The position numbers and the translations under genes were made by a program. From the NCBI RefSeq assembly GCF_054482525.1, contig NZ_CM137006.1: a stretch of DNA of 64,000 nucleotides. One strand, given 5' to 3'. This document shows positions 40,835 to 42,375 of this stretch, piece after piece. The notes under the pieces were generated by a model that searched no databases, was not told the DNA's origin, and saw only the letters and a list, made by a program, of their open reading frames with translations. Within the stretch, counting starts at the first letter, position 1. The number at the start of each line of letters is the position of its first letter.

Positions 40835-40875
40835 TGCCGGATACGGTGCACCTGTAGGCCTGATAAGACGCATCA
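40835..40875. repeat. REP palindromic unit, left half, interrupted by the IS insertion
   Basis: gccggatacggtgcacctgtaggcctgataagacgcatca; partner half lies on the other side of the IS. Confidence 0.7.
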
Positions 40876-40907
40876 TGAACTGAACCCCAAAACCTGGACA
40901 GTTTCAG

Positions 40908-41630
40908 TTAACCGGCTTTTTGATGCTCAGTCCGGTATTCTACCGGACTGAGTCCCCCAAGACTGAGTTTTATTCTTTTTTGATTCCAGTAAGTTATGTA
41001 TTCGTTAACGGCATTTTCCAGCTCTTCTACATTTCTGTAGTCCCGGCGATAGTACATTTCTTCTTTCAGGTGACCAAAGAAGTTCTCCATTACCGCATTA
41101 TCAAGGCAGTTGCCCTTGCGCGACATGCTCTGCACTAACCCTCTGTCCGCCAGGGCGGACTGATAACTTTTTATCCGGTAATGCCATCCTTGATCACTGT
41201 GGAGCAGCGGTTTCTCCCCTTCAGCAAGGCTTTCCAGCCCCTTATTTAACATCCGCTTCACCAGCTCCTCTGTAGGCCTGCAGGCCGTTTCCCACGCCAC
41301 GATTTCCCCGTTAAACAAATCAAGTATCGGGGACAGGTACAGTTTTTGTCCGCCAGCCCTGAATTCGGTGATATCTGTCACCCATTTCTCACAGGGAGCT
41401 TCCGCTTTGAACTGCCGCTGAAGGATATTTTCTGCAGCGAGTCCCATATTTCCCCGGTAAGACCGGTATTTCTTCAGGCGCACAGGAGACTTCAGGCCGA
41501 GCTGTTGCATCAGTTTTCGCACCGTTTTGCCACTGAACTTAAGACCTCTTTTCTGAAGCTCACAATGGATCCGCCGGTACCCATAACATCCCCGGTGTTC
41601 ATGGAAGATGGAGGCTATGAGCTGTTTCAC
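40908..41630 (-). CDS. IS3-family transposase OrfB (DDE integrase-like catalytic domain)
   Basis: 240-aa ATG-delimited ORF; HSDQGWHY and SRKGNCLDNA DDE-transposase motifs; the real frame extends upstream to the frameshift site (OrfAB fusion). Confidence 0.85.
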   Translation of the reverse strand: MKQLIASIFHEHRGCYGYRRIHCELQKRGLKFSGKTVRKLMQQLGLKSPVRLKKYRSYRGNMGLAAENILQRQFKAEAPCEKWVTDITEFRAGGQKLYLSPILDLFNGEIVAWETACRPTEELVKRMLNKGLESLAEGEKPLLHSDQGWHYRIKSYQSALADRGLVQSMSRKGNCLDNAVMENFFGHLKEEMYYRRDYRNVEELENAVNEYITYWNQKRIKLSLGGLSPVEYRTEHQKAG

Positions 41631-41734
41631 ATCAGCATACTTGTCCTTAGCCTTCTGCAGTGACAGCTGGTAGTACAGCGTGCTTCTGGCCAGCCCTGCA
41701 GCCTTTAACAGGTCAGACTGGCAGTGTCCGCACC

Positions 41735-42265
41735 TCAGGCTCCGGATGACTTTCGTTTTTTCTCCAGCTCCTGGCGCTTTTTTTCCAGGAGATGCTCCTG
41801 CATGGCTTTCAGATATGCATTTTCTGCGCGAAGATAACGCAGCTCATTCTTCATCTCTTCCGGCGTCATGTTTGCCTCGTTTTCATGGGTATCATCAGAA
41901 CGGGTCATGCTTTTCTCCTTCCTGCGCCTGATAAAGGCCTCATTACCAGATTTGCGGTAGCCTTTTATCCAGTTTTTAACCGTGTTGTGGCTGGGAATGT
42001 TAAACCGGGCAGCTACCCGGGGTAGAGACTCAGAATGCCCGAGAGCATAAAGAACCACGCAAAGTTTATCTTCAGGAGAATAGCTACGCTTGTGTCTGCA
42101 ATCCAGTGCCCGAGGACCGTGAAGAAGAAAAAGATTAATCCAGTGTGAGAGGCTGGTGTGAGAAAGTTGAAAGAGTTTTGCCGTAGAAATGATGCCTGCA
42201 TGACCAGCCAGGTAGTGATTTACAGCGGCAAGTTTTACTTCAAATGAATGTTTCATAAACTGCAC
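41735..42265 (-). CDS. IS3-family transposase OrfA (HTH DNA-binding protein)
   Basis: 176 aa with HTH and C-terminal leucine-zipper-like region (LRYLRAENAYLKAMQEHLLEKKRQELEKKRK). Confidence 0.8.
   Translation of the reverse strand: MQFMKHSFEVKLAAVNHYLAGHAGIISTAKLFQLSHTSLSHWINLFLLHGPRALDCRHKRSYSPEDKLCVVLYALGHSESLPRVAARFNIPSHNTVKNWIKGYRKSGNEAFIRRRKEKSMTRSDDTHENEANMTPEEMKNELRYLRAENAYLKAMQEHLLEKKRQELEKKRKSSGA
41777..41785 (-). other. programmed -1 ribosomal frameshift site (A AAA AAG) joining OrfA to OrfB
   Basis: Minus-strand gaaaaaaag heptad near the orfA C-terminus; orfB frame is -1 relative to orfA. Confidence 0.55.
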
Positions 42266-42307
42266 CTTCAGATGTCAGATTATGTCCAACATTTGGGGTG
42301 CAGTTCA

Positions 42308-42375
42308 TCAAGCGTCGCATCAGGCACTATGCTCAAATGCCGGATGCGGCGTAAACGCTTTATCCGGCATACACA
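42308..42375. repeat. REP palindromic units, right half of interrupted unit plus adjacent REP
   Basis: tcaagcgtcgcatcaggc ... atgccggatgcggcgtaaacgctttatccggcatac. Confidence 0.7.

What the first reader, a model, noticed from the sequence alone, without database searches (positions are those of the whole stretch)
40835..42375. IS3-family element (IS1397-like, 1432 bp) inserted inside a REP palindromic unit with a 3-bp TCA target duplication
25-bp imperfect terminal inverted repeats bound a 1432-bp element carrying orfA, an A7G frameshift site and orfB. Joining the flanks after removing the element and one TCA copy restores a REP palindromic unit (gcctgataagacgcatcaagcgtcgcatcaggc). Insertion into palindromic units is, as I recall, the characteristic behaviour of IS1397, and this element is absent from K-12 at this site. 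It lies between yjgA and the convergent mpl, so it probably does not disrupt a coding sequence.
Basis: partly seen in the sequence, partly recalled or inferred. Interest (0 to 1): 0.4.

Follow-up and report, generated by a model that had tools for sequence, protein, structure and literature searches.

The report
IS1397 inserted in a REP hairpin
This is an intact copy of IS1397, a well-known E. coli jumping gene, sitting where this element is known to land (the centre of a short repeated hairpin sequence between two genes), so it is correctly described but ordinary.

Summary
Window 40876..42307 is a 1432-bp IS3-family insertion sequence. It has 25-bp imperfect inverted repeats (21/25, TG...CA ends), orfA and orfB on the minus strand, an A AAA AAG -1 frameshift site and a DD(35)E transposase. 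It is flanked by a 3-bp TCA duplication.

Removing the element and one TCA reproduces exactly the empty yjgA-mpl spacer of K-12/TOP10 and of strain PF9285. That spacer contains the palindromic unit GCCTGATAAGACGCATCAAGCGTCGCATCAGGC.

The element is 100% identical to copies that RefSeq annotates as "IS3-like element IS1397 family transposase". Full-length copies occur in 1707 of 5426 complete E. coli genomes.

Ten sites other than this one were read, counting a 65-bp relic in K-12. Eight intact copies sit in the centre of a palindromic unit with a clean 3- or 4-bp duplication. A ninth sits there with an imperfect duplication. The tenth has lost its duplication through rearrangement.

This exact insertion is rare: 3 of 5426 genomes. 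The same spacer was hit independently twice more in its other palindromic unit. yjgA and mpl are intact.

Verdict: already known. Interest is low.

The parts
40257..40808 (+). yjgA (ribosome biogenesis factor), intact upstream neighbour, convergent with mpl
   Evidence: 183-aa ORF; annotated yjgA in the 100%-identical PCN033 stretch.
40835..40846 (.). Partial Y-type PU motif (TGCCGGATACGG) at the left edge of the BIME
   Evidence: Sequence; direct-repeat family D17 with 42338-42349. Also present in empty-site genomes.
40858..40872 (+). Left half of the split Z-type palindromic unit (GCCTGATAAGACGCA)
   Evidence: PU motif hit at 40858-40870. Contiguous with the right half in the K-12/TOP10 and PF9285 empty sites.
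40873..40875 (.). Target-site duplication, left copy (TCA), from the loop of the PU
   Evidence: Sequence. A single TCA is present in empty sites.
40876..42307 (-). IS1397, complete 1432-bp copy (transposase on the minus strand)
   Evidence: 100% identity over 1432 bp to elements annotated as IS1397. The ends are fixed because the same termini abut different flanks at the other sites.
40876..40900 (+). Right inverted repeat, IRR (the end distal to orfB), 25 bp
   Evidence: 21/25 match with the other end; begins TG.
40908..42256 (-). OrfAB transposase coding region (449 aa through a -1 frameshift). DDE residues D295, D355, E391, plus K398.
   Evidence: PGAP CDS joined from 2 pieces, 'programmed frameshift', WP_100190663.1. 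Fusion built. NF033516 387 bits. Pfam rve, rve_2, HTH_21, HTH_28. Motif positions.
41735..42256 (-). orfA (173 aa, two HTH regions, coiled-coil-like C-terminus), IS150-group architecture
   Evidence: Residues 2-152 align with the OrfA of IS150, ISKpn8, ISBth167 and ISEnfa3.
41777..41784 (-). A7G run containing the A AAA AAG -1 slippery heptamer
   Evidence: zero-frame codons are GAA AAA AAG. A possible stem-loop starts just 3' of it, but it is not significant (z = -1.9).
42283..42307 (-). Left inverted repeat, IRL (upstream of orfA), 25 bp
42308..42310 (.). Target-site duplication, right copy (TCA)
42311..42325 (+). Right half of the split Z-type palindromic unit (AGCGTCGCATCAGGC)
   Evidence: PU motif hit at 42313-42325 on the minus strand; empty-site alignment. 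The restored PU folds at -13.2 kcal/mol, z = -5.2.
42339..42368 (+). Intact Y-type palindromic unit of the same BIME (GCCGGATGCGGCGTAAACGCTTTATCCGGC). It is the target of an independent IS1397 insertion in strain EC28; strain ST3 carries another in the corresponding PU of its shorter spacer.
   Evidence: (I5). EC28 and ST3 insertions.
42395..43768 (-). mpl (murein peptide ligase), intact downstream neighbour, co-directional with the IS transposase
   Evidence: 457-aa ORF; annotation.

Best explanation
Window 40876..42307 is a complete and probably still functional copy of IS1397. IS1397 belongs to the IS3 family and has the IS150-group OrfA architecture. The copy transposed into the central loop of a Z-type REP/palindromic unit of the BIME that lies between the convergent genes yjgA and mpl.

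Shown here: the element's anatomy, the exact restoration of the empty site, and the same target rule at the other sites read.

Inferred from established knowledge of the IS3 family:
- Ribosomes translating orfA slip -1 at A AAA AAG and produce the OrfAB DD(35)E transposase.
- OrfAB binds the 25-bp inverted repeats and excises a copy as a circular intermediate with abutted ends (copy-out, paste-in).
- It integrates with staggered cuts 3 or 4 bp apart, and repair of those cuts creates the TCA duplication.

Target choice for palindromic units is a property of the IS1397 transposase. This was reported experimentally by Wilde et al. 2003, as cited in PMC1525189.

The insertion is recent and rare. 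It disrupts no gene. It splits one REP hairpin and moves the two gene ends 1.4 kb apart.
For: Identity:
- 100% over 1432 bp to RefSeq elements labelled IS1397. 1311 records hold a best match of at least 99% identity, and 1707 of 5426 genomes hold a copy covering at least 80%.
- OrfAB is an exact match to WP_100190663.1, 'IS3-like element IS1397 family transposase'.

Family:
- NF033516 at 387 bits against a cutoff of 160.
- Pfam rve, rve_2, HTH_21 and HTH_28.
- D295, D355, E391 with 35 residues between the second D and the E, and K398 seven residues after the E.
- TG...CA ends and 25-bp inverted repeats.
- A AAA AAG in the correct register.

Transposition into a PU:
- In-silico excision equals the empty sites of K-12/TOP10 and PF9285.
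- The restored PU is a strong hairpin, z = -5.2.
- The PU motif occurs 12 times in the window against 0.03 expected.

Target rule at other loci, each copy in a PU centre:
- caiE-caiF: CCA
- trmL-cysE: ATT
- znuB-ruvB: ACA
- ygcQ-ygcP: TCAA
- yfcO-smrB: TGAC
- rrf-distal site: GCA
- wcaA-wzc: GTGA
- EC28 yjgA-mpl, Y-type PU: GAAC
- ST3 yjgA-mpl, Y-type PU: imperfect duplication

Recency: this exact junction is found in 3 of 5426 genomes, and all but five genomes lack an insertion in this spacer.

Literature: IS1397 inserts specifically into REP/PU sequences of E. coli (PMC1525189; PMC3184786).
Against: - The ISfinder reference sequence of IS1397 and the original papers (Bachellier 1997; Clement 1999; Wilde 2001, 2003) are not held by the tools. 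The name therefore rests on the RefSeq/PGAP label and on matching behaviour. The reference values of 1432 bp and 25-bp inverted repeats are from my memory.
- Activity of this particular copy is inferred from its intactness and its identity to many other copies. It was not demonstrated.
- The consensus scan found no sigma-70-like promoter in the element.
- The stem-loop downstream of the slippery site is not statistically distinguished (z = -1.9).
Confidence: 0.95

Rival explanations
1. It is a different IS3-family member (for example an ISKpn1-like or other IS150-group element) that merely resembles IS1397 and landed in a REP by chance.
For: The ISfinder reference could not be compared directly. 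OrfA shares its architecture with IS150, ISKpn8 and others at 26-36% identity.
Against: - 100% nucleotide identity to elements that PGAP names IS1397.
- The next-best OrfA relatives in plasmids are below 60% identity.
- Every intact copy sampled sits in a PU centre. That is not chance, and it is the published hallmark of IS1397 (PMC1525189).
Confidence: 0.03
2. It is IS1397, but an inactive fossil copy inherited vertically rather than a recent, potentially active insertion.
For: No promoter-like site was found in the element by the simple scan. Frameshifted pseudogene copies exist in other genomes (L017 and L018).
Against: - The ORFs, slippery site, DDE residues and both inverted repeats are intact.
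- There are zero differences from many copies elsewhere.
- The TSD is perfect.
- The site is occupied in only 3 of 5426 genomes, in a spacer that is otherwise conserved.
Confidence: 0.1
3. The apparent TSD and PU restoration result from REP-REP or IS-IS recombination that brought unrelated half-PUs together, not from a simple transposition.
For: Such rearranged copies exist. L018 has flanks from two different PUs and no TSD.
Against: Here both flanks are the two halves of the very PU found uninterrupted at the same locus in empty-site genomes. A perfect TCA duplication is present and the genes on both sides are syntenic.
Confidence: 0.01

Closest known systems
IS1397 (IS3 family; E. coli natural isolates; Bachellier/Clement/Wilde/Hofnung work, cited in PMC1525189)
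   Same: - orfA/orfB with an A AAA AAG frameshift.
- Insertion in the centre of palindromic units with 3-4 bp duplications.
- Restricted almost entirely to E. coli chromosomes.
- 100% identical to RefSeq-labelled IS1397 copies.
   Different: Nothing detected. Only the particular insertion site (the Z-type PU of the yjgA-mpl BIME) is uncommon: 3 of 5426 genomes.
ISKpn1 (IS3 family, Klebsiella pneumoniae, PU-specific; cited in PMC1525189)
   Same: Same family and the same strategy of targeting palindromic units. The transposase determines the specificity (PMC1525189, citing Wilde 2003).
   Different: Different host and different PU type. It was not retrieved here as a close relative: OrfA hits in Klebsiella plasmids were below 30% identity and were labelled ISKpn8. 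ISKpn1 itself was not compared.
IS150 (IS3 family, IS150 group)
   Same: Long (about 173 aa) OrfA with two HTH regions, aligned over residues 2-152. A6G-type frameshift and DD(35)E OrfB.
   Different: Only about 28% OrfA identity. IS150 has no PU target specificity (my knowledge).
IS621 and other IS110-family REP-targeting elements (PMC1525189; PMC3184786)
   Same: They also use E. coli REP sequences as insertion targets.
   Different: Unrelated DEDD-type recombinase, no terminal inverted repeats or TSD of this kind. They insert at the 3' side of the REP rather than in its loop (PMC3184786).

Membership tests
IS3 family | Transposase matches the IS3-family profile above the curated cutoff | tested here: met
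   NF033516 at 387.2 bits against a cutoff of 160, covering model positions 1-369 of 369.
IS3 family | Two overlapping ORFs (orfA, and orfB in the -1 frame) joined by programmed -1 frameshifting at an A6G-type heptamer | tested here: met
   GA-A AAA AAG lies in the orfA frame at 41784..41777 (-). The -1 frame continues to 40908 and gives a 449-aa OrfAB. PGAP annotates a 'programmed frameshift'. Actual frameshifting was not assayed.
IS3 family | DD(35)E catalytic triad with a conserved K/R seven residues after the E, in an rve (RNase H-like) domain | tested here: met
   D295, D355, E391, K398. Pfam rve 3.8e-21 and rve_2 1.6e-20.
IS3 family | Imperfect terminal inverted repeats ending 5'-TG...CA-3', and a 3-4 bp target duplication | tested here: met
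   25-bp inverted repeats matching at 21/25, TGAAC...GTTCA. TSD is TCA here and 3 or 4 bp at eight other sites.
IS3 family | Copy-out, paste-in transposition through a circular intermediate | not testable with these tools
   Requires detection of circle junctions by PCR or sequencing reads.
IS1397 (the specific element) | At least 95% nucleotide identity to the ISfinder IS1397 reference | not testable with these tools
   The reference is not available. As a proxy, the element is 100% identical to elements and to a protein (WP_100190663.1) that RefSeq names IS1397.
IS1397 (the specific element) | Length of 1432 bp with 25-bp inverted repeats (reference values recalled from memory) | tested here: met
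   1432 bp and 25-bp inverted repeats were measured. The other intact copies are also 1432 bp.
IS1397 (the specific element) | Inserts specifically into the central part of E. coli palindromic units (REP) of BIMEs | tested here: met
   This copy and every other copy read lie in a PU centre. The literature statement is in PMC1525189 and PMC3184786.
IS1397 (the specific element) | Present in natural E. coli isolates but absent as a full copy from K-12 | tested here: met
   K-12 MG1655, BL21 and MC1061 show only a 65-bp end relic. The K-12/TOP10 yjgA-mpl site is empty.
REP / palindromic unit (BIME) | Imperfect palindrome of about 30-35 nt with the GCC(G/T)GATGCG(G/A)CG...CG(C/T)CTTATC(C/A)GGC consensus, able to form a hairpin | tested here: met
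   The restored unit is GCCTGATAAGACGCATCAAGCGTCGCATCAGGC. As DNA it folds at -13.2 kcal/mol, z = -5.2, with 0 of 200 shuffles folding as well.
REP / palindromic unit (BIME) | Extragenic and dispersed in many copies, often as clusters in alternating orientation | tested here: met
   12 motif hits in the window against 0.03 expected, all in pairs or clusters, for example 36929-37012 and 48539-48577. This unit lies between the stop codons of yjgA and mpl, next to an oppositely oriented Y-type PU.

The most novel reading that the evidence does not exclude
The yjgA-mpl BIME may be a preferred, orientation-biased landing pad whose occupation has regulatory consequences.

- It was hit at least three separate times: in the Z-type PU here, and in the Y-type PU in EC28 and ST3.
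- All three insertions place the transposase co-directional with mpl.
- Read-through from mpl could therefore drive orfA/orfAB expression.
- Splitting the 3' REP hairpin could change the mRNA stability of yjgA or mpl.

None of this was tested. Three same-orientation events are not statistically meaningful (p about 0.25).
Probability: 0.12. Interest if true: 0.25.

Novelty: already known. Interest (0 to 1): 0.08.

Why it matters
It matters little beyond correct annotation. It is a textbook example of a target-specific insertion sequence (IS1397 into REP/palindromic units).

The rare yjgA-mpl insertion could serve as a strain or lineage marker for PCN033-like E. coli. The survey here also gives a small, clean confirmation, from complete genomes, of the target rule: PU loop with a 3-4 bp duplication. 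Finally, it shows that the element is almost confined to chromosomes (7 of 7612 places on plasmids), as expected for an element whose targets are chromosomal REPs.

Tried and rejected
1. I tried to read the primary IS1397 papers (PMC94167, PMC95333, PMC169884, PMC135288). None is held. Reference length, inverted-repeat size and TSD size are therefore from memory. The PU specificity is taken from PMC1525189 and PMC3184786.

2. I considered that the first 61 residues of OrfA might be a PU-recognition module peculiar to IS1397. They lie outside the NF033516 model and give a weak HTH_29 match. I rejected this as a distinguishing feature because OrfA of IS150, ISKpn8, ISBth167 and ISEnfa3 aligns from residue 2. 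The long double-HTH OrfA is the general IS150-group architecture.

3. I looked for a frameshift-stimulating structure. A stem-loop is predicted right after the slippery site, but z = -1.9, which is not convincing.

4. The promoter and terminator scan of 40700-42500 gave nothing above the shuffle expectation.

5. Many of the first 100%-identity hits I fetched turned out to be the same trmL-cysE site. This shows that site is widely shared, but it added no new sites.

6. I checked whether the window is strain PCN033. It is 99.897% identical from position 873 onward, with a different sequence before that. It is therefore a close relative, not necessarily PCN033 itself.

Full report
**Observation**

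The region was read directly. A 1432-bp block, 40876..42307, is bounded by 25-bp imperfect inverted repeats. These are TGAACTGAACCCCAAAACCTGGACA at 40876-40900 and, on the opposite strand at 42307-42283, TGAACTGCACCCCAAATGTTGGACA. They match at 21 of 25 positions and have the TG...CA termini typical of the IS3 family.

A degenerate pattern for this repeat occurs exactly twice in the 64-kb window, against 0.00 expected in shuffles. The window therefore holds one copy, and the ends are not a chance match. The block is flanked by TCA at 40873-40875 and TCA at 42308-42310.

**Coding capacity**

The coding strand is the minus strand.

- orfA runs from the ATG at 42256 to the stop at 41735 (173 aa).
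- An A7G run at 41784..41777 lies in the register GA-A AAA AAG relative to orfA. This is the canonical A6G -1 slippery heptamer.
- The -1 frame then stays open to 40908.
- The resulting OrfAB fusion is 449 aa. It is an exact match to WP_100190663.1, which RefSeq calls 'IS3-like element IS1397 family transposase' and annotates with a programmed frameshift.
- It scores 387 bits on NCBIfam NF033516, IS3 family transposase (cutoff 160).
- It carries Pfam HTH_28, HTH_21, rve and rve_2.
- The catalytic signature is intact: D295, D355 and E391, with 35 residues between the second D and the E, and K398 seven residues after the E.

A stem-loop is predicted immediately 3' of the slippery site, but it is not statistically distinguished (z = -1.9).

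**Identity**

The 1432 bp are 100% identical to full-length elements in many complete E. coli genomes, all labelled IS1397 by PGAP.

- 1707 of 5426 genomes hold a copy that covers at least 80% of the element.
- 1311 records hold a best match of at least 99% identity.
- Only 7 of 7612 places are on plasmids.
- In PLSDB only three plasmid records carry an OrfA with at least 95% identity.

The OrfA architecture, a long double-HTH protein, aligns from residue 2 with the OrfA of IS150, ISKpn8, ISBth167 and ISEnfa3 at 26-36% identity. This places the element in the IS150 group of the IS3 family.

The ISfinder reference and the primary papers were not available. The name therefore rests on the RefSeq label plus matching behaviour.

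**Target**

Removing 40876..42307 and one TCA gives a 151-bp spacer. Its first 109 bases are identical to the empty yjgA-mpl spacer of TOP10 (a K-12 derivative) and of strain PF9285. The join falls inside GCCTGATAAGACGCATCAAGCGTCGCATCAGGC.

- This sequence is a Z-type REP/palindromic unit. As single-stranded DNA it folds at -13.2 kcal/mol, with z = -5.2.
- Its half-site motif occurs 12 times in the window against 0.03 expected, in typical BIME clusters.
- The TCA lies in the 5-nt loop (ATCAA) of the hairpin.
- A Y-type unit in the opposite orientation follows at 42339-42368, so the target is a BIME.
- yjgA (40257-40808, +) and mpl (43768-42395, -) are intact.

**Is PU targeting a property of the element?**

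I read the flanks of copies at other loci. In each case the element sits between the two halves of a palindromic unit.

| Site | Duplication |
|---|---|
| caiE-caiF | CCA |
| trmL-cysE | ATT |
| znuB-ruvB | ACA |
| ygcQ-ygcP | TCAA |
| yfcO-smrB | TGAC |
| a site distal to an rrf gene | GCA |
| wcaA-wzc | GTGA |
| EC28, Y-type PU of the yjgA-mpl BIME | GAAC |
| ST3, the single Y-type PU of a shorter yjgA-mpl spacer | imperfect |

- Both orientations relative to the asymmetric PU occur.
- One copy (L018, yphB-rrf) has flanks from two different PUs and no duplication. That is what recombination between two copies would leave.

These results reproduce the published statement that IS1397 inserts specifically into REP sequences of E. 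coli (PMC1525189; PMC3184786).

**Distribution of this insertion**

With a junction-spanning query, only 5 of 5426 genomes have IS1397 in the yjgA-mpl spacer.

- Three of them (PCN033, SCU-102, 19KM1776) have this exact junction at 100% identity.
- EC28 and ST3 are independent events in the other PU.

The window itself is 99.897% identical to PCN033 from position 873 onward. The insertion is therefore recent and lineage-restricted.

**Mechanism**

Shown: the anatomy, the target and the duplication. Inferred from IS3-family knowledge:

- -1 frameshifting yields OrfAB.
- OrfAB binds the inverted repeats and produces a circular copy with abutted ends.
- The circle integrates with a 3-4 bp stagger.
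- PU recognition is attributed to the transposase (PMC1525189, citing Wilde et al. 2003).

The likely consequences here are modest. One REP hairpin is split, and the transposase gene is co-directional with mpl, so read-through into orfA is possible. This was not tested. No promoter-like or terminator-like features above expectation were found.

**Comparison and novelty**

This is IS1397 behaving exactly as described in the literature. Nothing distinguishes it except the uncommon site. The finding is already known and of low interest.

**Confidence**

I put 0.95 on IS1397 having inserted by transposition into a PU.

Noticed in passing
L020 1501-1565 (K-12 MG1655 record NZ_CP097882.1 258142-258206), between yhhJ and yhhI: K-12, BL21(DE3), MC1061 and roughly half of all complete E. 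coli genomes have no full IS1397. They carry a 65-bp relic of its orfB-distal end (95% identity). The relic abuts a half palindromic unit (GGCCGGATAAGGCGTTTA) and is cut off next to the ISEc1/H-repeat transposase gene yhhI. This looks like an old PU insertion truncated by a later event.
   Followed up: partly
L018 (NZ_CP134715.1, yphB-rrf) compared with L017 (NZ_CP082045.1, rrf site): One IS1397 copy (1427 bp, frameshifted) has no target duplication. Its right flank is the rrf-distal PU half seen in L017, but its left flank is a different PU next to yphB. This is the signature of recombination between two IS1397 copies, meaning a deletion or inversion.
   Followed up: partly
window 40835-40902 region; loci L004, L021, L022: The yjgA-mpl spacer is itself polymorphic. 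Strains EC21Z-083 and ST3 lack the 68-bp block that holds the Z-type PU (82-bp spacer in EC21Z-083 against 155 bp in K-12/TOP10). The spacer has been hit by IS1397 three separate times in two different PUs, always with the transposase co-directional with mpl.
   Followed up: yes
window 1-1088: tRNA-Leu(CAA) (leuX) lies at 1004-1088 on the minus strand. Similarity to PCN033 stops at window position 873, just past the tRNA. In PCN033 a tyrosine integrase gene follows the tRNA. The content of the island integrated at leuX therefore differs between this genome and PCN033.
   Followed up: partly
window about 37528-38050 (-), and about 50500-51100 (-): A RelE/RelB-family toxin-antitoxin pair is annotated between nrdG and cybC in the near-identical PCN033 sequence. 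The chpS-chpB pair lies further on. I did not check whether the relBE pair is strain-specific.
   Followed up: no
window 48519-48595 (-): An Rfam naRNA4 (nucleoid-associated ncRNA, CssrE) hit at 63.6 bits, just above its gathering score of 59.5. It coincides with another BIME (PU motif hits at 48539-48551 and 48565-48577), so the hit is probably REP-derived.
   Followed up: no
window 29896-30011 (-), 12103-12297 (-), 58211-58268 (+), 62840-62962 (-): Other Rfam gathering-score hits: the Mg riboswitch in the mgtA leader, Ysr276, STnc450 and ES239. They are ordinary enterobacterial features, unrelated to the finding.
   Followed up: no
E. coli complete genomes and PLSDB: IS1397 is almost exclusively chromosomal: 7 of 7612 places are on plasmids, and 3 PLSDB plasmid records carry an OrfA with at least 95% identity. 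This fits an element whose targets (REP/BIME) are chromosomal. The trmL-cysE insertion is shared by many unrelated-looking strains.
   Followed up: partly
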